Positions 2,944 to 11,088 of a DNA stretch of 64,000 nucleotides are shown one piece after another. Position 1 is the stretch's first letter. Each line of letters opens with the position of its first letter. A program made the position numbers and the translations under genes. The notes below the pieces were generated by a model that searched no databases, had not been told where the DNA came from, and saw only the letters and a program-made list of their open reading frames with translations. Source of the stretch: Shigella phage Sf22; sequence record MF158045; one strand, given 5' to 3'.

Positions 2944-5040
2944 TTATCCTTGAACGAACTTGTAAGGCATGTTTGTAATATCTATGCAAGACGCAATAAT
3001 TCCAAGAGATGATTCTACTTTCTGTTTAACATTTGATGAAACAAATGATGCAAAGTCAACTCTGTCTTCTATTTCAATATCACCTGTCATTGCAACTACT
3101 TCGCCAGTTTCCATTAAACGGTCACCGTCATAAATTACCGATTCGGTGAGTTCTTCGGTGGTCATAACTTCAGCTTGAATGAGTTTTGTATTATTAGACG
3201 TGGTTCCGTCATTATTAGAAGCATCAGTTATTTTATTAACTTTGACCATCAATCCGCGCGGTAGAATAACTTCGGCTTCTGTTGCTATTCCGAGACTTCC
3301 TGGATATACAACATTAACTTTATGAGCTCCATCAATTGCCCATCCTATTTGAACTTTAACGTATTCAGGATTTTCTTTATACGCTCTTATTTCGTTTGGA
3401 TTAATAGTTATTCCTTCTTCATTTTTATCAACTGTTAATTCATTGCGAGCTTCTGGTTCTAAAAGACCAATACCAGCATGTGTAATTCCAAAACGTCCAA
3501 AAATGATAGGAGTTAAAGAAGTAGATACAAAATTTCTGAAATAGAACACTTTATTTTTAACTAGTGCTTCGTATATAGGAGCAGTCATACTTTGAGCACG
3601 ATAAACTGTAATGCCTTCCGGTATACGGTCACCATTTTCAAAAGCTGAATCTAAATTATTTATAGCAGATTCAATTTCTTTTTCACTCATTATATCATAT
3701 CGTTCTGGATTGTAACGACCTAAAAGAAGATTATTGATGTCTGTATATCCTGAACCACAATACTCTCTAATGCCGCGCTTTTGTGATGGAGTATATTTAG
3801 AACCATCACGGGCAATAGTAATATCAATCATTGGACCTGCACCAATTCCGGAAAAGCTATAAATCATTCGTTTGAGGAATTTAGTTTTTGCTGCATTCCA
3901 GGCATTTTTAGTTATTTCTCCCCAGACTTCATCTGGTTGCCCTTTACGAGTTTTATTATGTTTATCAAGCCAATTATCTTTATATTCTTCAAAGAATTTA
4001 TTAACAGCTGCTGCGTATTTCTCTAAACATTTTATTGAAGTAGTTGGTTCATTTTTGATTGCGTTAAAAATTACATCTTTAATTTTTTCGGAAACTTCAT
4101 CAACCTCACTTTTTGAAAAGAATTTATAGTCATAGTGAAGTTCATTCGCAGTTCCTTCGGCAATAATTTTTGCTGCCTTAGTTTTAGAAGCTAATGAATT
4201 AATTCCAAGCTTCATTTCTTCTGCTTCGGGAATTAAAGGAGCGGTAGCAGGTTTATTGAAATTAGCTGCGGTAGATTCATACTTCTGGAATAATTCACTT
4301 TCAAATCTAGAAGACTCTAACGATTGACTTTGTGCAATTGCTCTACGGGAAATTTTAACTTTAACGATTACAGCTTGGTCAGAACGTTTATCGTTTTCTT
4401 GTGCAATAGATGCTGCAATTGCCTCATTTTTAGTTACTTGAGCCCCAGTATCTTTATTGATATAAACATCACCGACCTTCGATTCAACTTTAGTAAAGAG
4501 CTCGGTACTAATTTCCGGAACTCCTGGAATGTCTTCTAGTGATACATTTTTGCGATGTATAAGAATATATGCATACTTTTTATCATAATCCCAGAGTTCC
4601 TTAAGAAGGACGTATCTGCCACCTGAACGACTACGGATAAGTCTATCAGCAATAACTTGAATTTGTCGAGCTTGACCAGCGGTTTTAGACTTAAGAATAC
4701 GGAGCATACAGGCATCAATTTTATACTGACGCATTGTTTGCATTGCAACAGTAAAAACTGAATTGATATAATTAATTGGGCTTGGACCAAGACCTTTTAA
4801 TTTAGCAATTGAACCTTTAGCAGTTAATGTAAAAGGAACAATATGCATCATTTTATCGCCCATCTTTAAATCGCGATTAGTATCACCTCCAGATGTATAG
4901 GTACATAAACGAAAGCCTGGCTGTTCAATTGCATCATCAACGTGAACTGAAAAAATTTGCGGTATTTTCTTCTTTGGATTTAAGTTTGTAATCGGAAGAG
5001 TAGTATCTTCGTCAAATAATTCTGTAATAAGTTCCATCAT
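2944..5040 (-). CDS. alt: Alt-family mono-ADP-ribosyltransferase, paralog B (698 aa)
   Basis: First ~230 aa closely similar to paralog A; central region diverged; catalytic motifs retained (VYRAQ, FVSTS, TEAEVILPRG). Which copy is the T4 alt orthologue cannot be decided without alignment. Confidence 0.85.
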   Translation of the reverse strand: MMELITELFDEDTTLPITNLNPKKKIPQIFSVHVDDAIEQPGFRLCTYTSGGDTNRDLKMGDKMMHIVPFTLTAKGSIAKLKGLGPSPINYINSVFTVAMQTMRQYKIDACMLRILKSKTAGQARQIQVIADRLIRSRSGGRYVLLKELWDYDKKYAYILIHRKNVSLEDIPGVPEISTELFTKVESKVGDVYINKDTGAQVTKNEAIAASIAQENDKRSDQAVIVKVKISRRAIAQSQSLESSRFESELFQKYESTAANFNKPATAPLIPEAEEMKLGINSLASKTKAAKIIAEGTANELHYDYKFFSKSEVDEVSEKIKDVIFNAIKNEPTTSIKCLEKYAAAVNKFFEEYKDNWLDKHNKTRKGQPDEVWGEITKNAWNAAKTKFLKRMIYSFSGIGAGPMIDITIARDGSKYTPSQKRGIREYCGSGYTDINNLLLGRYNPERYDIMSEKEIESAINNLDSAFENGDRIPEGITVYRAQSMTAPIYEALVKNKVFYFRNFVSTSLTPIIFGRFGITHAGIGLLEPEARNELTVDKNEEGITINPNEIRAYKENPEYVKVQIGWAIDGAHKVNVVYPGSLGIATEAEVILPRGLMVKVNKITDASNNDGTTSNNTKLIQAEVMTTEELTESVIYDGDRLMETGEVVAMTGDIEIEDRVDFASFVSSNVKQKVESSLGIIASCIDITNMPYKFVQG

Positions 5041-5061
5041 AGCCTCTCTAGTGTTTATTCT

Positions 5062-5069
5062 ATTTATAA
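5062..5069 (-). promoter_or_regulatory. Candidate late promoter (TATAAATA) upstream of the alt pair
   Basis: Exact TATAAATA on minus strand ~25 nt upstream of the paralog B start; Alt is a virion-packaged protein. Confidence 0.45.
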
Positions 5070-5073
5070 AATT

Positions 5074-5091
5074 AAAGGCCCGAAGGCCTTT
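5074..5091 (-). terminator. Stem-loop AAAGGCC-CGAA-GGCCTTT with adjacent T-rich tract
   Basis: Perfect 7-bp stem, 4-nt loop; same hairpin sequence recurs at 52626-52643. Confidence 0.45.
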
Positions 5092-5278
5092 AGTAATCTA
5101 GTGGTAAGAGAGTACGATATATTTCAAACTTTGGTCCTTTTTCATAGGCATCAAATGTTTCTGTAAATTTATTATAAGCGTATGCATCTACAAATTCGAG
5201 AATGACTTGTGATACAGAAGTAGAAACATCTCCACCTTCTTTTTGAGCAATGACAATTGTTTCTAAGTAAGCTTTCAT
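5090..5278 (-). CDS. Hypothetical protein (62 aa)
   Basis: ORF track; start overlaps the ligase stop. Confidence 0.5.
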   Translation of the reverse strand: MKAYLETIVIAQKEGGDVSTSVSQVILEFVDAYAYNKFTETFDAYEKGPKFEIYRTLLPLDY

Positions 5279-6738
5279 AGACCAGTTACCTCATGAAAAT
5301 CACCAAATACATCCTCGAATGTATTAGCTTTAGTTTTATCTTCACGTAAACGAATCGCAATCGGAAGAAATAATTTAACGTAATCAGTGCGGCCATCAGA
5401 TTTTAACCAACCGTTGCATTCGCACTCTAGAATTTTTCCAATATAATAATTTTGGTTTTCCATAATGCGAGTACGGTCAAGCTCATGTGATTTTACGCCG
5501 GCTTTATCTTTTAAGCCTGAACCAGCATTTACTTTAATTTTTCCACATTCTGATTCAAGAATAAATCCACCCGCTTTAGTAGGGTCTTTACGGTGAGGAT
5601 AAATTCCTACAATTTTTAAATCAACATCAATTACTTCTTTAAATTTATAAAGATTTTTTGAACGAGCATTTTCCCATAATCCATCGATATTTTTGAGAAT
5701 AATACCTTCAAGACCTTGGTCAATATACTTTTTGTAAATTACCTTAGCTTCATCTAGGTTATTTACTACCTGGTTTTCAATTAAAATTACTTTATCATAG
5801 CCTGATGTCATTTGTTCTAGTTTAGAAAAACGTACATCATACTTTAAACGAAATGCAGGAAGACCATATATTTCTACTAATGGAACATAGTCCCAGACCT
5901 GAAACTTCATGCATTGTGCTTCTTTTTCGGAAATGGTTCCCTTTAAAGATTTATTAGCGATTCCATTAGAAGCAGTACGTGATTCAGCTACTTCGGCGAA
6001 TTCTTTAGCTTTACTAATTTCAGGATAAGCATCAAAAAGAAAATCTAGGCCTTCTGGTTCCTTTTTAACTTGCTCATGGTATACCAATTCGCCATCAATT
6101 AACACACCTTCTGGATGAATCTGGCGGGCTTCAGCGGTCATTTTGATTAACTCTTCCTTGAGAAGATCTAATCCTAGATATTCATTACCAGCTCGTGATA
6201 AAAGACGAACATCATCTAATTCATCACCTCTGACTTCAGCAAAGCACCGAGCTCCATCAGCTTTTAATTGGGCAAAGGCTGGAAATTTGATATTCTTATT
6301 AATGCCTTTTTCATCATAAGAACTTGCCAGCATTTGAGGTTGTTCAGGAATTAAACCTGGCCAAACTTTGTTTGCAATAGATACTGATGCACCACATTCA
6401 AGGTCTCGCATCATCACCCGACGCAAAACTTCAACATCATCTTTTTTACCGTCAGCAATATATCCAGTTAATTCCTCAATTGCCGCATTTCCGGTCAATT
6501 TCCGAGTAGCTAACGTTAATTCAATGAAGTCAAGCATATCGGTAAGAGTCAACATTCCAAAACTCTGGGTAGCAATACCAGGTTTAGGCCATTTCTTGAT
6601 ATAATACTGTAACCCACGAGAATAAGTCAGACGATATACTCGTTTAAGCAATTCATTATCTTTATTCTTTTCAAGAATTGCTTGCTTCTGCTTAGTTGAA
6701 CCAATAGATGCTATTTCGTTCAGAATTTTAAGAATCAT
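5275..6738 (-). CDS. 30: ATP-dependent DNA ligase
   Basis: 487 aa, MILKILNEIASIGSTKQKQAILEKNKDNELLKRVYRLTY... matches recalled T4 DNA ligase throughout. Confidence 0.97.
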   Translation of the reverse strand: MILKILNEIASIGSTKQKQAILEKNKDNELLKRVYRLTYSRGLQYYIKKWPKPGIATQSFGMLTLTDMLDFIELTLATRKLTGNAAIEELTGYIADGKKDDVEVLRRVMMRDLECGASVSIANKVWPGLIPEQPQMLASSYDEKGINKNIKFPAFAQLKADGARCFAEVRGDELDDVRLLSRAGNEYLGLDLLKEELIKMTAEARQIHPEGVLIDGELVYHEQVKKEPEGLDFLFDAYPEISKAKEFAEVAESRTASNGIANKSLKGTISEKEAQCMKFQVWDYVPLVEIYGLPAFRLKYDVRFSKLEQMTSGYDKVILIENQVVNNLDEAKVIYKKYIDQGLEGIILKNIDGLWENARSKNLYKFKEVIDVDLKIVGIYPHRKDPTKAGGFILESECGKIKVNAGSGLKDKAGVKSHELDRTRIMENQNYYIGKILECECNGWLKSDGRTDYVKLFLPIAIRLREDKTKANTFEDVFGDFHEVTGL

Positions 6739-7004
6739 TGTTCATCCTTTAGAGTTTGGTTTACAGCTCTATTATAAATCAATTCATCATTAAGCTCAGT
6801 CAAAGACCTGTGGTACGTGGTTCTAACTTTATTTCCTTGCATCCAGTGCTTGACGTAAATGAAACCTTGCTCTACACATTTTTTAAAAATTCGTTCGTCT
6901 TTTTGAGCTCGAAATTCTGGATTGCATCTAAAAAATTGATTTACGTGACCGTAATCACGTGTAGTATTACCTTCATTTTCATAAATAGTGTGAACGACAA
7001 ACAT
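6735..7004 (-). CDS. Hypothetical protein (89 aa), 30.1 position
   Basis: ORF track; synteny. Confidence 0.55.
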   Translation of the reverse strand: MFVVHTIYENEGNTTRDYGHVNQFFRCNPEFRAQKDERIFKKCVEQGFIYVKHWMQGNKVRTTYHRSLTELNDELIYNRAVNQTLKDEQ

Positions 7005-7840
7005 TAGAATGCTCCTTGGAAAATATTATCACCACCAGTAGGTCTATTATACAAATACTCTATGCCACCAGGTTTAATATAGTTCCATGTCTGAAAAGGA
7101 TGCGTCTGATATGGATGATATAGATTATAAGGATTAAATCCAGGAGTTCTCCAGGTAGTGTTCCAAGGAAAAGAATCGTTTTTAATCATCTTCTCAATTA
7201 CATCTTTTATAACTTTTTCACTATCAAAACTTTCTTTATTTTCCTTCGATGGAAAAAGTTTATTCTCTACATCATTCCATGTATAAACTCGCTGCGCAGT
7301 TTTTGGAATATTGTCACGCTCCCCTCGAGCCATCCAATAAACAGGAACATTTAATAATTCACTTGCATGATCGCAGTGGTGAGCGAGATCGTCAATATAA
7401 CAAATTACGTTATATTTCTCTTTTGCCTTTTTGAACAACTCTTCTTTTGAAGAATCATGACTACACATCAGTACTTCTGAGAAGGCACCAGGAAAAAGAG
7501 CATTCAAATTAAATTGACGATTCAACAGAGCGTCAATAGAATCACCCAGTGCTGTAACAGCAACAAAATTATAATCTTCTTTTAATTTGTTAATTACACA
7601 CAGAGCATCTTTATATGGAGACAAGTAACGAATAAAATCCGAACGATTGTATTTTTCAATTAGCTTAACGCCAAGATCTTCATCACAGTTAAAGAGTTTA
7701 CCTGGAGAAATAAATTTTTCGTCCTGAATCATTTTTAAAATATGTTCTAACGGAAGATTATATTTCTGAGCAAAATAAGGAAGACCTGATTGCCAGCTTA
7801 AACATACACCATCAATATCAGTCAAAATAGTAGGCTTCAT
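7004..7840 (-). CDS. HAD-superfamily hydrolase-like protein (278 aa), 30.2 position
   Basis: N-terminal LTDIDGVCL resembles HAD motif I (DxDG[VT]). Confidence 0.6.
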   Translation of the reverse strand: MKPTILTDIDGVCLSWQSGLPYFAQKYNLPLEHILKMIQDEKFISPGKLFNCDEDLGVKLIEKYNRSDFIRYLSPYKDALCVINKLKEDYNFVAVTALGDSIDALLNRQFNLNALFPGAFSEVLMCSHDSSKEELFKKAKEKYNVICYIDDLAHHCDHASELLNVPVYWMARGERDNIPKTAQRVYTWNDVENKLFPSKENKESFDSEKVIKDVIEKMIKNDSFPWNTTWRTPGFNPYNLYHPYQTHPFQTWNYIKPGGIEYLYNRPTGGDNIFQGAF

Positions 7841-8301
7841 AGAGAGTCTCTTAGTAGGTTTAACACATCAATAAATTCAGCTTCGGTTAGTATTGTATCA
7901 TCTTTTGTTAGACCACTAGCCATGCTGTGCTTCAAAACTTTTCCTTTTGAGGCTTGTAAGGCATCACGAAAGCCCTTGTTTTGGATCGCTGCTTCAAAAT
8001 ATGCATTTGTATACAACTCTTTCCACGCTGGAGAGTATCTTGAAAATGGAACTCCAAGCCAGAAGAGGGTCCCACGGTCCTGAGCTCTAGCATAAGACCT
8101 TCCAGCTTGTTGGGCGGCAAGCCCGGATAACCCAAATACACGACGTTGTTGTTCAACATTTTTCACCTTGCATCCTTGGAGGAATCCTTCAAGACCTCCA
8201 AATTGAATACCATCCATGACGAAAGGCCATTGGGCGAAATTACTTAATGCACATGATGGCCACCTAAAATTGCTTCTAATCTCTAACTCAGACATTTTCA
8301 A
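7837..8301 (-). CDS. NADAR/YbiA-like (DUF1768) protein (154 aa), 30.3 position
   Basis: LSNFAQWPFVMDGIQFGGLEGFLQGCK resembles the NADAR signature. Confidence 0.55.
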   Translation of the reverse strand: MKMSELEIRSNFRWPSCALSNFAQWPFVMDGIQFGGLEGFLQGCKVKNVEQQRRVFGLSGLAAQQAGRSYARAQDRGTLFWLGVPFSRYSPAWKELYTNAYFEAAIQNKGFRDALQASKGKVLKHSMASGLTKDDTILTEAEFIDVLNLLRDSL

Positions 8302-8494
8302 TGCTTATAATTTCAACATCAGCCCAATGACCATAGCAAGGAAGACGAAATTCAACTGGCCAGTTAGGGTCCTTTTCTAATATAATAGACTCAACTTGTG
8401 GTTCTTCATGTTCATCAGTATATGGATTTTTATCTGTTACTTTATATGTGACCTTAATGTACTGAATTCCAAAAATCTTATTAATTATATTCAT
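8288..8494 (-). CDS. Hypothetical protein (68 aa)
   Basis: ORF track. Confidence 0.45.
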   Translation of the reverse strand: MNIINKIFGIQYIKVTYKVTDKNPYTDEHEEPQVESIILEKDPNWPVEFRLPCYGHWADVEIISIENV

Positions 8495-8688
8495 ACTAAT
8501 TCCTTTAATCCGTAAATAGGAGATAATTCATCACCCATGCGAAGGTCTTCATTTCCATCTACCCAGGAAACAATATAAGCCTCTTTTATTTGAATACCAC
8601 TCCATTTAAATGGAGGTAGAACCTTAGAAATTAATCCAGGTATACCAACTCCCTTTAATTCAACAGTTTGACCTAAAAAGAATTTCAT
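8491..8688 (-). CDS. Hypothetical protein (65 aa)
   Basis: ORF track; start overlaps upstream stop. Confidence 0.45.
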   Translation of the reverse strand: MKFFLGQTVELKGVGIPGLISKVLPPFKWSGIQIKEAYIVSWVDGNEDLRMGDELSPIYGLKELV

Positions 8689-8975
8689 TAGAACCTCATC
8701 TGAAAACCGTGCGATTTAACATTACCGCCGCCAATATCAGAAATGTTAATTTCACGCGCAATTGAAGGGTCAATGTCAATTTCACGATTGAGTTTAGTGA
8801 TAGCTAAAGTATCGCGCCCATTTACAGTACGAAACTCTAAAGGACAAACCACATCAACATAGTTTTTAATCGATTCGCTAGTAGGTTGCAAATGTGCAGG
8901 AAGGTCTTTAGGCGCCTTTGAGAAAACTACTTCGCAGAAGTTTTTACGGGTATCAAAATAAGTGGTCATAAACAT
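8688..8975 (-). CDS. Hypothetical protein (95 aa)
   Basis: ORF track; GAGG RBS. Confidence 0.5.
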   Translation of the reverse strand: MFMTTYFDTRKNFCEVVFSKAPKDLPAHLQPTSESIKNYVDVVCPLEFRTVNGRDTLAITKLNREIDIDPSIAREINISDIGGGNVKSHGFQMRF

Positions 8976-9015
8976 AATAATTCCTCAGTAAGGGGCTGAA
9001 GCCCCTCATTTTATT

Positions 9016-9381
9016 TTAAATATCAAATTCGTTAAGAACTACATCAAAGATTGCTTCCAAGTGCTCAGGTTTAGCTTTGTTACTCAGAATATGACGAATC
9101 CAAGTTTTAACCAAAAGCTTGCGATTAACGCCATTCCAGCAAGGATGAGCCCCTAAATCGCGTTGACGGAAATCATCATCCAGAGCGATTTTAAAGTTGG
9201 AACCTTCCATTGTGATTGAAACCGTGATACCGTTTTCAAATCGCATATAAACGTAATTAGGAGTCATATACTGTTCAATTTCGCATACTGAACCATTTTG
9301 ATGTTTCCAGAGGCAAATAGTATCAATAGAACCTGCAATACCATTAGAAACATATTTACGTTCAAAGTTAATGTAGTTCAT
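9016..9381 (-). CDS. Hypothetical protein (121 aa; start moved to MNYINF)
   Basis: Conserved leader TTGGAGAATAAAATG; the track start is a TTG inside the RBS. Confidence 0.5.
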   Translation of the reverse strand: MNYINFERKYVSNGIAGSIDTICLWKHQNGSVCEIEQYMTPNYVYMRFENGITVSITMEGSNFKIALDDDFRQRDLGAHPCWNGVNRKLLVKTWIRHILSNKAKPEHLEAIFDVVLNEFDI

Positions 9382-9406
9382 TTTATTCTCCAAGATGTTT
9401 AATTGC

Positions 9407-9446
9407 GGTACAGGTATATAATATCATATCCTGTACCAAAGTAAAC
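9407..9446 (-). promoter_or_regulatory. Early promoter (GTTTAC -35) with 8-bp inverted repeat GGTACAGG/CCTGTACC bracketing the -10
   Basis: GTTTAC-N17-TATTAT on minus strand; arms at about 9407-9414 and 9430-9437. Confidence 0.45.
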
Positions 9447-9448
9447 AA

Positions 9449-9781
9449 TTATTTTACTACTTTCCAGTGCTTCATGTCAAGTTTACCAACTTTTTTCATC
9501 TTCTCAATTAAGCGTTCGGCACGTTGGCGAGCTGTAACATAATACCATTCACCTAATTCATTTTGTTCAATTTTTCCAACGATTACTGTATTCAATTCAT
9601 AAATCCAACCAGTAAAGAAATTATGAACTTGAATTGTAAAGGTGAAATCTGTTCCCATACCTTCTGTTGTTTCTACTTCAATAATATCACCTTCAACTGC
9701 CATTAAGAACCACATAGTTTCATCATATTTACCATTGAAGCATTTAGTTTTAACTGCAGCGTTCAGATTAATCGTTTTCAT
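9449..9781 (-). CDS. Hypothetical protein (110 aa)
   Basis: ORF track; AGGAGAATAAAATG RBS. Confidence 0.5.
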   Translation of the reverse strand: MKTINLNAAVKTKCFNGKYDETMWFLMAVEGDIIEVETTEGMGTDFTFTIQVHNFFTGWIYELNTVIVGKIEQNELGEWYYVTARQRAERLIEKMKKVGKLDMKHWKVVK

Positions 9782-9865
9782 TTTATTCTCCTTTGTTTGT
9801 GTAAGATAATACTATCACAAAGGAGCTATACTGTAAACAACTTTATGCAATCTTTGGAAAATAAA

Positions 9866-9890
9866 AAAGGACTCCCGAAGGAGTCCTCAA
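9866..9890 (-). terminator. Rho-independent terminator (GGACTCC-CGAA-GGAGTCC + T-run)
   Basis: Perfect 7-bp stem followed by TTTTTTATTTT on minus strand; identical hairpin recurs after soc. Confidence 0.6.
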
Positions 9891-9891
9891 C

Positions 9892-10068
9892 TTATGCTTT
9901 CTGCTTACCAAAACGAGAAGCATCATCTCGAAGAACCGCACGTGCTCGGCGCATGATCTTCTCAACAGTTTGATTGATACGAGAGTTCGACCCACGCTTG
10001 TAACCAGCGCGTTTAGAATCACCAACTTTCTTTTCAACTGCTTTCTTTGCTTTAACTTGTTTTGCCAT
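9892..10068 (-). CDS. Small basic protein (58 aa; start at MAKQVKAKK)
   Basis: Lys/Arg-rich ORF with AAAGAG RBS; the track's N-terminal extension lacks an RBS. Confidence 0.5.
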   Translation of the reverse strand: MAKQVKAKKAVEKKVGDSKRAGYKRGSNSRINQTVEKIMRRARAVLRDDASRFGKQKA

Positions 10069-10356
10069 TAAAAATTCTCTTTTAAACGAAAATGCAGGAC
10101 TTATTGGCATTGCCTGCGAAAGCCCTCAAAGGGGTACTTAGGTTTTGAATATTTACCGACAGGATAACCATAAACCCGTCATCATACCACCAAGACTTAC
10201 ACAGATAACACTTTTCTGACGCATGATAGTAACATTCAAGAGGTACACCGTAAAACTGCCGGGGTCTTAAAACTATAATGATTCGCAAATCATTAATCAG
10301 ACAGTTCGACGGCTCCTCGATTTTAGCTCACACTAAGGCAGTGAATCTCCAATAAA

Positions 10357-10605
10357 TTACTTCAGTGTTACCACAAAGTGACGAACTGCTTTTCGTGCAG
10401 CAGAAGCCAGAGGCTTAGCATATTTAAGTTCATCTTTTTCCTGAAGCTCAGCAGCTAATGCAGTTTGAGCAGGATTCAGATGTTTGAAATAACGCAGGAT
10501 TTCAAGAGCTTCGGCTTCAACATCAATAGATGCGCCATAGTTTTCGTGACCATTATTCCATGCGTTTCGTTGCAGTTCAAGAGCGTGTTGTAATTGTTTA
10601 ATCAT
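10357..10605 (-). CDS. rIII: rIII lysis-inhibition accessory protein
   Basis: 82 aa, MIKQLQHALELQRNAWNNGHENYG... matches recalled T4 rIII; synteny. Confidence 0.9.
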   Translation of the reverse strand: MIKQLQHALELQRNAWNNGHENYGASIDVEAEALEILRYFKHLNPAQTALAAELQEKDELKYAKPLASAARKAVRHFVVTLK

Positions 10606-10744
10606 TTAAAAATTCTCGTTAGAGATTAAAACTCGGTAGTCACGTTCTTCTGAATTTCATCTTCTTTCGACAGATCTCTCAGTTGTAGACTACCACATAG
10701 AATTGTTCGGTTAACTTATTATTCCGACACCCAATTCATATTAT

Positions 10745-10752
10745 TATTTATA
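10745..10752 (-). promoter_or_regulatory. Candidate late promoter (TATAAATA) in the 31-rIII intergenic region
   Basis: Exact TATAAATA on minus strand ~140 nt upstream of the rIII start. Confidence 0.3.
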
Positions 10753-11088
10753 TCACTTATAAAGACACGGAATAGCTTTATAATGACAGGTAACGAATTT
10801 TTGTTTAATTTCTTTTGGCTGCTTAAGACCCAGAGCTACAAAAGGATGCGGAACATTTCGAATTTGACCAACTGGAAGAGAAGTCAAATCACCAACTTCG
10901 CAGAAACCTTCAGGAACATCAGGACCGACAGAGTGAACTACACACAGTTCAGGAACTTCACCTTGAACACGTTTACCGATGATAAGTCCTGATTCTGTAA
11001 CTTCTTCATCACCGGCTTGTGCAGGTTCAGAAACTAAAATAACATATTCACCGACAGCACGAATTGGTAGCTGTTGTACTTCAGACAT
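10753..11088 (-). CDS. 31: Co-chaperonin (GroES analogue)
   Basis: 111 aa, [22 protein letters not shown]... matches recalled T4 gp31. Confidence 0.93.

What the first reader, a model, noticed from the sequence alone, without database searches (positions are those of the whole stretch)
7004..8301. HAD-like hydrolase and NADAR-like protein side by side downstream of ligase
The 278-aa ORF has a HAD motif I (DIDGV) and the 154-aa ORF has a NADAR-like signature (LSNF...PF..DG..F...E..FQ..K). NADAR enzymes are known to remove ADP-ribose from guanine bases in DNA. Adjacent to DNA ligase, this looks like a DNA-repair or counter-defence module.
Basis: partly seen in the sequence, partly recalled or inferred. 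Interest (0 to 1): 0.45.

Follow-up and report, generated by a model that had tools for sequence, protein, structure and literature searches.

The report
T4 adfN NADAR plus neighbouring phosphatase
These are genes 30.3 and 30.2 of a close relative of phage T4: 30.3 is AdfN, an already characterised enzyme that strips ADP-ribose off phage DNA to defeat the bacterial DarTG1 defence, and 30.2 is an uncharacterised nucleotidase-like phosphatase that published genetic data show is not needed for that job.

Summary
The window is a Tequatrovirus segment, and 7004-8301 (minus strand) holds T4 genes 30.2 and 30.3.

**gp30.3** is 150/152 identical to T4 AdfN, a NADAR-superfamily DNA ADP-ribosylglycohydrolase shown experimentally (Toxins 2024; Nat Commun 2025; HIDEN-SEQ 2025) to remove guanine-linked ADP-ribose and to be necessary for resistance to DarTG1. 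The window copy is full length and keeps E36, K43 and H123. Its model matches only the three solved NADARs. Its true start is the ATG at 8295 (152 aa), not the TTG at 8301.

**gp30.2** has all four HAD motifs and a confident capped-HAD model. Four independent lines place it nearest the 5'(3')-deoxyribonucleotidase (NT5C) family. Its substrate is unknown.

**The 'module' reading is not supported.**
- In published T4 transposon data, 30.2 insertions are neutral under DarTG1 (log2FC -0.12) while 30.3 insertions vanish (-7.25).
- Across T4-like phages, gp30.2 stays beside the DNA ligase (68/77 loci), whereas the NADAR is within 10 kb in only 37/77.
- Both genes lie upstream of the ligase, not downstream.

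Verdict: correct annotation of a known system. Interest is low. What remains open is gp30.2's substrate.

The parts
7837..8295 (-). Gene 30.3 = adfN. It encodes a 152-aa NADAR-superfamily DNA ADP-ribosylglycohydrolase (anti-DarTG1).
   Evidence: 150/152 identical to T4 gp30.3. Pfam PF08010 E=3e-70. AF2 model pLDDT 93.8. Foldseek finds only NADAR structures: 2b3w, 8bau, 8bat. Function shown for T4 AdfN in PMC11825919, PMC11125620 and the HIDEN-SEQ preprint.
8296..8301 (-). Two extra codons (TTG AAA) that give the mechanical 154-aa ORF. Probably not translated as part of AdfN.
   Evidence: T4 annotates the ATG start and 152 aa. The published catalytic numbering E36/K43 fits the ATG start.
8167..8190 (-). 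AdfN catalytic motif EGFLQGCK, containing E36 and K43.
   Evidence: E36 is invariant and K43 nearly invariant in 50 homologs. E36A and K43A abolish T4 AdfN function. Coordinates.
7927..7929 (-). AdfN H123, the histidine that replaces the Glu/Asp of other NADARs and marks the phage gp30.3 clade.
   Evidence: Invariant in alignment A2. Described as the distinguishing residue in PMC11125620.
7840..7884 (-). AdfN C-terminal helix (aa 138-152). It is intact here; its loss by frameshift inactivates the RB69 copy.
   Evidence: Model helix 138-151. RB69 30.3 is 137 aa. The paper links the truncation to DarTG1 sensitivity.
7004..7840 (-). Gene 30.2, encoding a 278-aa protein: a capped HAD phosphatase core plus a variable tail.
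   Evidence: 270/278 identical to T4 gp30.2. phrog_420 E=2e-91, function unknown. No Pfam or NCBIfam family at threshold.
7256..7840 (-). gp30.2 HAD core with C1 helical cap (aa 1-195), NT5C-like.
7805..7819 (-). HAD motif I, DIDGV (nucleophile D8 and acid/base D10).
   Evidence: D8, D10 and G11 are invariant in 46 homologs. D8 and D10 remain invariant in remote relatives.
7388..7564 (-). HAD motifs II (T96), III (K132) and IV (D150, D151), plus invariant R108 and N111.
   Evidence: Conservation. Coordinates.
7007..7255 (-). gp30.2 C-terminal tail (aa 196-278). It has one helix, then a disordered aromatic/Pro/Gly/Asn-rich stretch ending in the conserved motif GIEYLYNRPT (within aa 258-268, about 7037-7069; the 7040-7069 stretch checked reads GGIEYLYNRP).
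   Evidence: pLDDT <50 from residue 229. The tail is absent or different in many homologs. The motif is present in 15/58 tailed homologs.
7837..7840 (-). ATGA overlap: the stop codon of 30.3 overlaps the start codon of 30.2 (translational coupling).
   Evidence: Read directly from the sequence.
8288..8295 (-). ATGTCTGA overlap between the start of 30.3 and the stop of 30.4.
   Evidence: Read directly from the sequence.
5275..6738 (-). Gene 30, ATP-dependent DNA ligase (context). It is the conserved downstream neighbour of 30.2.
   Evidence: Pfam PF01068. 483/487 identical to T4. Adjacent to gp30.2 homologs in 68/77 viral loci.

Best explanation
Two adjacent, tightly packed genes of a T4-type phage that have separate functions.

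(1) Gene 30.3 is adfN. Its 152-aa product has the NADAR (YbiA) fold. During infection it hydrolyses the N-glycosidic bond between ADP-ribose and guanine bases that the host DarT1 toxin (DarTG1 defence) puts on phage DNA, which restores replication. Residues E36, K43 and H123 form the active site, and the C-terminal helix is required. This mechanism is shown experimentally for the T4 protein. It is inferred for the window copy from 98.7% identity and intact residues.

(2) Gene 30.2 encodes a Mg2+-dependent phosphomonoesterase of the HAD superfamily. D8 would be the nucleophile and D10 the acid/base, with T96, K132 and D150/D151 completing the site. It carries a four-helix C1 cap and is closest to 5'(3')-deoxyribonucleotidases (NT5C). 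The cap and the conserved aromatic W16 point to a small nucleotide-like substrate rather than DNA ends. This is inferred; the substrate is unknown.

gp30.2 is a widely conserved accessory gene of T4-like phages that stays next to the ligase gene. It is dispensable on E. coli K-12 and is not part of the anti-DarTG1 mechanism.
For: AdfN:
- Identity to T4 is 150/152, with E36, K43 and H123 present.
- These residues are invariant or nearly invariant in 50 homologs.
- The model has pLDDT 93.8. The only confident PDB matches are YbiA 2b3w (E=1e-4), Phytophthora NADAR 8bau and Geobacter NADAR 8bat.
- A family profile hits YbiA at E=0.006 over the catalytic motif.
- Literature: necessary for DarTG1 resistance in T2/T4 and sufficient to rescue RB69, with E36A and K43A inactive; in-vitro de-ADP-ribosylation of guanosine-ADPr; transposon insertions lost under DarTG1, log2FC -7.25.

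gp30.2:
- HAD motifs are invariant.
- The core of the model has pLDDT >90 with a helical cap at residues 16-86.
- Foldseek top hit is cdN 2jao, E=2.2e-8, and the cdN/mdN entries have the lowest rmsd.
- The family profile hits cdN at E=0.013 and aligns W16 with the Phe that follows motif I.
- 15/45 remote relatives hit Pfam NT5C.

Separate functions:
- In HIDEN-SEQ, 30.2 has insertions at 72/72 TA sites, log2FC -0.12 under DarTG1 and -0.10 in M9 medium. The DarTG1 screen had only two significant genes, 30.3 and 30.4.
- The ligase is adjacent to gp30.2 in 68/77 loci, whereas a NADAR is within 10 kb in 37/77.
- A gp30.2 homolog is within 10 kb in only 23 of the 80 IMG/VR NADAR-seeded loci.
Against: - No biochemical data exist for gp30.2. 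The single sequence misses every Pfam HAD model at threshold (best is HAD_PNKP, E=0.14), so the NT5C assignment rests on profiles, bridging relatives and predicted structure.
- The ATGA overlap and the near-identical host-genus distribution of the two genes fit co-expression.
- The Nat Commun paper infers an unidentified T-even factor that potentiates AdfN, so a redundant helper role for gp30.2 is not strictly excluded.
- The HIDEN-SEQ data come from a preprint, from one competition condition, in T4 rather than in this phage.
Confidence: 0.8

Rival explanations
1. gp30.2 works together with AdfN, for example as the unidentified 'potentiating factor' that AdfN needs in vivo, or by dephosphorylating an ADP-ribose-derived product. 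With the ligase, it would form one DNA-repair or counter-defence unit.
For: - The ATGA stop/start overlap of 30.3 and 30.2.
- Both genes are present in about 1450-1500 phage records with matching genus counts.
- They are adjacent in T-even, Acinetobacter, Morganella and Proteus phages.
- AdfN(T4) fails in uninfected cells and in T5/Bas25 but works in RB69, which has an intact 30.2. The authors postulate another phage factor.
Against: - T4 insertions in 30.2 (71 TA sites) are not depleted under DarTG1: log2FC -0.12, adjusted p = 1. Insertions in 30.3 drop by -7.25, and only 30.3 and 30.4 are significant.
- In many T4-like genomes the NADAR lies more than 10 kb from gp30.2, which stays by the ligase.
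- NADAR homologs occur without any nearby gp30.2 in Rhizobium and Vibrio phages and in most metagenomic loci.
- No HAD-NADAR fusions were found among the long family members.
Confidence: 0.06
2. gp30.2 is a ligase-associated polynucleotide 3'-phosphatase. Like the PNKP phosphatase domain, it would convert 3'-phosphate DNA ends to 3'-OH so that gp30 ligase can seal nicks.
For: - gp30.2 is immediately next to the ligase in 68/77 loci, and stays within about 700 bp even where the gene order is inverted.
- Weak sequence hits to HAD_PNKP (E=0.14) and to the polynucleotide-kinase family phrog_415 (E=0.002).
Against: - The Pnkp match covers only 126-129 core residues, whereas NT5C-like and other capped HADs align 160-180 residues including the cap.
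- A C1 cap normally encloses small substrates (established HAD-superfamily knowledge, Burroughs et al. 2006, cited from memory).
- Remote relatives hit Pfam NT5C 15 times and HAD_PNKP once.
- T4-type phages already encode PseT.
- Remote homologs sit in contexts without a ligase.
- Synteny in T4-like genomes may simply be inherited.
Confidence: 0.12
3. gp30.2 is a catalytically dead HAD-fold protein with a structural or regulatory role carried by its C-terminal tail.
For: The tail carries a conserved short motif suggestive of partner binding. No phenotype was seen in any tested condition.
Against: All catalytic residues (D8, D10, T96, K132, D150/D151) are invariant or nearly invariant across 46 homologs. 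D8, D10 and K132 are invariant even in remote relatives. Many homologs lack the tail altogether.
Confidence: 0.02

Closest known systems
T4 AdfN (gp30.3), anti-DarT factor NADAR (Nat Commun 2025, PMC11825919)
   Same: 150/152 residues identical, same length, same catalytic E36/K43/H123, same C-terminal helix, and the same genomic position between 30.4 and 30.2.
   Different: Two conservative substitutions (V53I and M124I relative to T4). Nothing functional is expected to differ.
DarG1-type (BC4488 family) NADAR antitoxins and E. coli YbiA
   Same: Same fold, same N-terminal SNF...E..(F)Q..K catalytic motif, and the same guanine-ADP-ribose hydrolase chemistry.
   Different: - The phage clade has His where DarG1 has Asp and YbiA has Glu.
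- It lacks the DarG1 N-terminal extension.
- It is an orphan, with no linked DarT.
- It does not rescue DarT1 toxicity in uninfected cells.
- It is modelled by a separate Pfam family, PF08010, rather than PF08719.
5'(3')-deoxyribonucleotidases cdN/mdN and bacterial NT5C-like proteins (Pfam PF06941; PDB 2jao, 2i7d, 1mh9, 3bwv)
   Same: HAD core plus four-helix C1 cap, the motif I context D-x-D-G-V-x-x-x-aromatic, similar motif spacing, and best structural and profile matches. Remote gp30.2 relatives hit PF06941.
   Different: - Only 14-20% identity.
- gp30.2 itself is below the Pfam threshold.
- It has an 80-residue disordered tail.
- Trp replaces Phe after motif I.
- R108 and N111 are invariant in the gp30.2 family.
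- Substrate untested.
T4 PseT (Pnkp) 3'-phosphatase domain
   Different: Pnkp matches only the core (126-129 residues) and acts on polynucleotide ends. gp30.2 carries a C1 cap. T4 already has PseT elsewhere in the genome.

Membership tests
NADAR superfamily (gp30.3) | [quoted passage not shown] | tested here: met
   AF2 model pLDDT 93.8. The Foldseek top three hits are the only NADAR structures (2b3w prob 1.00, 8bau 0.99, 8bat 0.99). The next hit has prob 0.02.
NADAR superfamily (gp30.3) | Catalytic Glu and Lys in the N-terminal E..(F)Q..K motif, preceded by SNF. | tested here: met
   LSNF at aa 17-20 and EGFLQGCK at aa 36-43. E36 is invariant and K43 is conserved in at least 90% of 50 homologs. 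The motif aligns to the YbiA motif.
NADAR superfamily (gp30.3) | Direct match to the Pfam NADAR model PF08719. | tested here: not met
   The window protein hits only PF08010 Phage_30_3. One distant homolog (P0184) carries both PF08010 and PF08719 hits. The relationship is therefore at superfamily level, through profile and fold.
Phage gp30.3/AdfN clade | Histidine in the last strand in place of Glu/Asp, and an intact C-terminal helix. | tested here: met
   H123 is invariant. The protein is full length at 152 aa with a helix at 138-151. Compare the RB69 truncation to 137 aa.
Phage gp30.3/AdfN clade | Guanine-ADP-ribose DNA glycohydrolase activity and anti-DarTG1 function. | not testable with these tools
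   Shown for the 98.7%-identical T4 protein. Inferred for the window copy.
HAD superfamily (gp30.2) | Four catalytic motifs: DxDG(T/V), S/T, K, DD. | tested here: met
   D8, D10 and G11 are invariant, T96 is conserved in at least 90%, K132 is invariant, and D150/D151 are conserved in at least 90%. D8, D10 and K132 are invariant in remote relatives.
HAD superfamily (gp30.2) | Rossmann-like HAD core fold. | tested here: met
HAD superfamily (gp30.2) | Curated HMM match above threshold. | tested here: not met
   Best Pfam hit is HAD_PNKP at 12.7 bits against a cutoff of 27.6. No NCBIfam hit. Relatives hit NT5C, HAD_2 and Hydrolase.
NT5C 5'(3')-deoxyribonucleotidase family (gp30.2) | C1 four-helix cap and the motif I context DxDGVxxx(F/W); closest similarity to cdN/mdN. 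| tested here: inconclusive
NT5C 5'(3')-deoxyribonucleotidase family (gp30.2) | Dephosphorylation of 5'- or 3'-deoxyribonucleoside monophosphates. | not testable with these tools
   No biochemical data were found in the literature searches.
PNKP-type polynucleotide 3'-phosphatase (gp30.2) | HAD core with an open active site able to accept DNA or RNA 3' ends. | tested here: not met
   The model has a roughly 70-residue helical cap. T4 Pnkp aligns over only 126-129 core residues.

The most novel reading that the evidence does not exclude
gp30.2 represents a large, unnamed, ligase-linked clade of NT5C-like phosphatases: about 1400 clusters at 50% identity and no Pfam or NCBIfam family. It is conserved across T4-like phages, and its substrate could be something other than an ordinary dNMP. 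One possibility is a counter-defence or pool-sanitising enzyme that acts on a nucleotide-derived immune signal or a non-canonical nucleotide. Another is a redundant helper of AdfN. The evidence also leaves open that the tiny upstream gene 30.4, the only other DarTG1 hit in T4, is the missing AdfN potentiator.
Probability: 0.12. Interest if true: 0.55.

Novelty: already known. Interest (0 to 1): 0.18.

Why it matters
The NADAR part matters as an example of a lytic phage carrying an orphan antitoxin-like enzyme that repairs ADP-ribosylated DNA, but this was published in 2024-2025, so the window adds nothing new. The useful outputs here are:
1. A corrected start codon for 30.3.
2. A firmer assignment of the still 'hypothetical' T4 gene 30.2 to the NT5C-like branch of HAD phosphatases.
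3. Evidence that its conserved partner is the ligase gene rather than adfN.
4. Evidence that it is not the unidentified factor AdfN needs in vivo, which narrows the search for that factor.

Tried and rejected
- Single-sequence searches of both proteins against PDB sequences gave nothing significant. NCBIfam gave nothing.
- Literature searches for 'gp30.2' (0 papers), a four-term search combining 30.2, 30.3, bacteriophage T4 and HAD (noise only), and deoxyribonucleotidase plus phage plus anti-defense (nothing relevant) found no function for gp30.2. Petrov 2010 does not mention 30.2 or 30.3.
- I took up the hypothesis that gp30.2 is the AdfN 'potentiating factor' postulated in PMC11825919. I rejected it on the HIDEN-SEQ DarTG1 table and on the lack of conserved linkage.
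- I looked for domain fusions (HAD-NADAR, HAD-ligase) among the long family members and found no informative partner domains.
- Rfam found no RNA element at 5000-11000. The promoter-like site count was no higher than in shuffled sequence (22 vs 19.4).
- The gp30.4 co-occurrence test was uninformative, because homologs are detectable only in close T-even relatives.
- I did not test T5, Bas25 or E. coli for gp30.2 homologs, because the genetic data made this unnecessary.
Full report
**Where the window comes from.** The flagged interval lies in a run of minus-strand ORFs whose neighbours are recognisable T4 genes: an Alt-type ADP-ribosyltransferase, the 487-aa ATP-dependent DNA ligase, DUF3045 (30.1), gp31, rIII and dCMP deaminase. 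Megablast of 6500-8800 finds 697 phage records, nearly all Tequatrovirus and relatives, with a best identity of 97.9%. Against the T4 reference, ligase is 483/487 identical, gp30.1 88/89, gp30.2 270/278 and gp30.3 150/152. The finding therefore concerns T4 genes 30.2 and 30.3.

**Checking the observation.**
- Both ORFs are present as described.
- The 278-aa ORF carries DIDGV at residues 8-12.
- The other ORF carries LSNF...PF..DG...EGFLQGCK.
- The mechanical ORF list starts 30.3 at a TTG (8301, 154 aa). T4 annotates the ATG two codons downstream (8295, 152 aa), and the published catalytic numbering (E36, K43) fits only the ATG start.
- The genes are packed with overlaps: ATGTCTGA between 30.4 and 30.3, ATGA between 30.3 and 30.2, and TAATG between 30.2 and 30.1.
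- They lie in one apparent unit between a strong sigma-70-like site at 9480-9451 and a terminator-like hairpin at 5092-5073. The promoter scan is not enriched over shuffles.

**gp30.3 is AdfN, a NADAR.**
- Pfam places the protein in its own family, PF08010 Phage_30_3 (E=3e-70), not in PF08719 NADAR. I therefore tested the superfamily link independently.
- A profile of 50 diverse homologs hits E. coli YbiA (PDB 2b3w) at E=0.006 across the catalytic motif.
- The AlphaFold model (pLDDT 93.8) matches only three PDB entries with high probability: YbiA, the Phytophthora NADAR-ADP-ribose complex, and the Geobacter lovleyi DarT-associated NADAR.
- E36 and H123 are invariant in the family and K43 is nearly invariant. 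All three are present in the window copy, which is full length.

The function is already established by experiment.
- T4 gp30.3 removes ADP-ribose from guanosine-ADP-ribosylated DNA in vitro, but not from thymidine-ADPr.
- It was named AdfN after phage crosses mapped DarTG1 resistance to it.
- Deleting it sensitises T2 and T4 to DarTG1, and ectopic expression rescues RB69. E36A and K43A are inactive.
- RB69 is naturally sensitive because a frameshift removes the last 15 residues. I confirmed the 137-aa RB69 ORF.
- A transposon screen independently found 30.3 insertions lost under DarTG1.

**gp30.2 is an NT5C-like HAD phosphatase.**
- The single sequence is below every curated HMM threshold: HAD_PNKP E=0.14, nothing in NCBIfam, and PHROG 420 'unknown function'.
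- In 46 homologs, D8, D10, G11 and K132 are invariant, and T96 and D150/D151 nearly so. These are the four HAD motifs. D8, D10, R108 and K132 stay invariant in relatives at 22-45% identity.
- The model is confident for residues 1-195 (pLDDT >90) and shows a helical insertion between motifs I and II, which is a C1 cap.

Four independent lines point to the 5'(3')-deoxyribonucleotidase branch:
1. The family profile hits mouse cdN at E=0.013 and aligns W16 with the Phe that follows motif I.
3. The Foldseek top hit is cdN 2jao (E=2.2e-8), and the cdN/mdN entries have the lowest rmsd.
4. An exhaustive profile search finds 1444 cluster representatives, and 15 of 45 sampled remote ones hit Pfam NT5C, best 1.5e-9.

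Other capped HADs score nearly as well, so family membership is probable, not proven. The substrate is unknown. The last 80 or so residues are a variable, largely disordered tail rich in aromatic, Pro, Gly and Asn residues. The tail is missing in many homologs. A near-C-terminal motif G-[IVL]-E-Y-x(3-4)-[QR]-P-T recurs in 15 of 58 tailed homologs.

**Are the two genes a module?** This was the part of the interpretation most worth testing. The published AdfN paper reports that AdfN(T4) works fully only during T-even infection, even with unmodified T4 DNA, and postulates an unidentified potentiating phage factor. gp30.2 looked like a candidate: it is translationally coupled to adfN, present in RB69, and found in about as many phage records (1438 vs 1509, with matching genus counts). 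Two tests go against it.

1. Comparative genomics.
   - Among the 80 IMG/VR loci seeded on gp30.3-type NADARs, a gp30.2 homolog lies within 10 kb in only 23. All of these are in T-even-like, Acinetobacter, Morganella/Proteus or RB43-like phages.
   - Among 77 loci seeded on gp30.2, the ligase is adjacent on the same strand in 68 and within 1.5 kb in 72. A NADAR is within 10 kb in 37 and adjacent in 27.
   - In divergent contigs with inverted order, the HAD gene is still about 700 bp from the ligase.
   - In cyanophage-like contexts without a ligase, it sits near clamp-loader genes.
   - NADARs in Rhizobium and Vibrio phages have no adjacent gp30.2.
2. Genetics. The HIDEN-SEQ supplementary tables for T4 show the following.
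   - 30.2 has insertions at 72/72 TA sites, so it is non-essential.
   - In the Control-vs-DarTG1 sheet (header confirmed), 30.2 has log2FC -0.12 and adjusted p = 1, whereas 30.3 has -7.25 and adjusted p = 0.
   - Only two genes are significant, 30.3 and 30.4.
   - 30.2 is also neutral in M9 versus LB medium.

gp30.2 is therefore not required for AdfN function in T4. Its conserved partner, whether by function or by descent, is the ligase gene.

**What gp30.2 most likely does.**
- The capped architecture, the conserved aromatic residue after motif I and the NT5C affinity favour a Mg2+-dependent phosphatase acting on a nucleotide-like small molecule.
- A PNKP-like DNA 3'-phosphatase serving the ligase is the main rival. 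The neighbourhood and weak PNKP hits support it. It is disfavoured by the cap, by the core-only alignment to T4 Pnkp, and by the presence of PseT in these phages.
- A dead-enzyme scaffold is unlikely, given the invariant catalytic residues.

**Novelty and score.** The NADAR half is a textbook-level rediscovery of AdfN. The HAD half is a reasonable annotation of a still-hypothetical T4 gene, already labelled 'HAD' in a few phage records. Nothing here is categorically new. The residual open questions are the substrate of the gp30.2 clade, the role of its tail motif, and whether the modest DarTG1 signal on 30.4 is polar or real. These justify a small but non-zero interest.

Noticed in passing
window 8288-8494 (-), gene 30.4: In the published T4 DarTG1 transposon screen, 30.4 is the only significant gene besides adfN (log2FC -1.79, adjusted p = 0.014). 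Its stop codon overlaps the adfN start (ATGTCTGA). This may be a polar effect on adfN, or 30.4 may be the unidentified factor that potentiates AdfN. Homologs are detectable only in close T-even relatives, and there they always overlap the NADAR start.
   Followed up: partly
window 7932-8159 (-), ORF 30.3': The 75-aa out-of-frame ORF that T4 annotates inside 30.3 is present here too. Of the 16 nucleotide differences from T4 in 30.3, 14 are synonymous in the 30.3 frame. Within the 30.3' frame, 10 of 11 are non-synonymous (87% vs 98.7% protein identity). So 30.3' shows no sign of constraint as a protein.
   Followed up: partly
window 7007-7255 (-), gp30.2 residues 196-278: This is a disordered C-terminal tail. 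About 70% of its last 56 residues are F/W/Y/P/G/N/T. It ends in a conserved short motif, G-[IVL]-E-Y-x(3-4)-[QR]-P-T, 6-10 residues from the C-terminus. The motif is kept in homologs down to 47% identity although the linker varies. It may be a partner-binding peptide; the function is unknown.
   Followed up: partly
gp30.3 homologs P0104-P0118, P0121, P0149, P0194: Many T4-like phages carry truncated gp30.3 fragments (83-126 aa) or gp30.3 fused to neighbouring small-gene families (PF06919, PF11097, PF06019). This suggests recurrent decay or rearrangement of adfN, as in RB69.
   Followed up: no
loci L017-L083 and L098-L118; H103: The gp30.3-type NADAR sits at different genomic positions in different Straboviridae lineages: next to 30.2 and ligase in some, about 60 kb away in others. 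One Tequatrovirus-sized phage, vB_EcoM_G37-3, has a NADAR only 37% identical at the T4-like position. This suggests repeated acquisition or allelic replacement.
   Followed up: partly
window 2944-5040 (-), alt: An ADP-ribosyltransferase (Alt, PF03496) lies about 2.8 kb downstream of the ADP-ribosylglycohydrolase AdfN, in the same orientation. T4 alt insertions are neutral under DarTG1 (log2FC -0.01), so no functional link is evident.
   Followed up: partly
PMC11125620, Methods: The in-vitro paper describes its T4 gp30.3 construct as 'residues 1-208', although the T4 gene encodes 152 residues. The construct may include tags or come from another phage. Worth checking before relying on that assay.
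   Followed up: no
L164 7258-7524: A divergent T4-like metagenomic contig that carries a ligase-linked gp30.2 homolog also encodes a Tad2-like (PF11195, anti-Thoeris) protein about 4.5 kb away.
   Followed up: no
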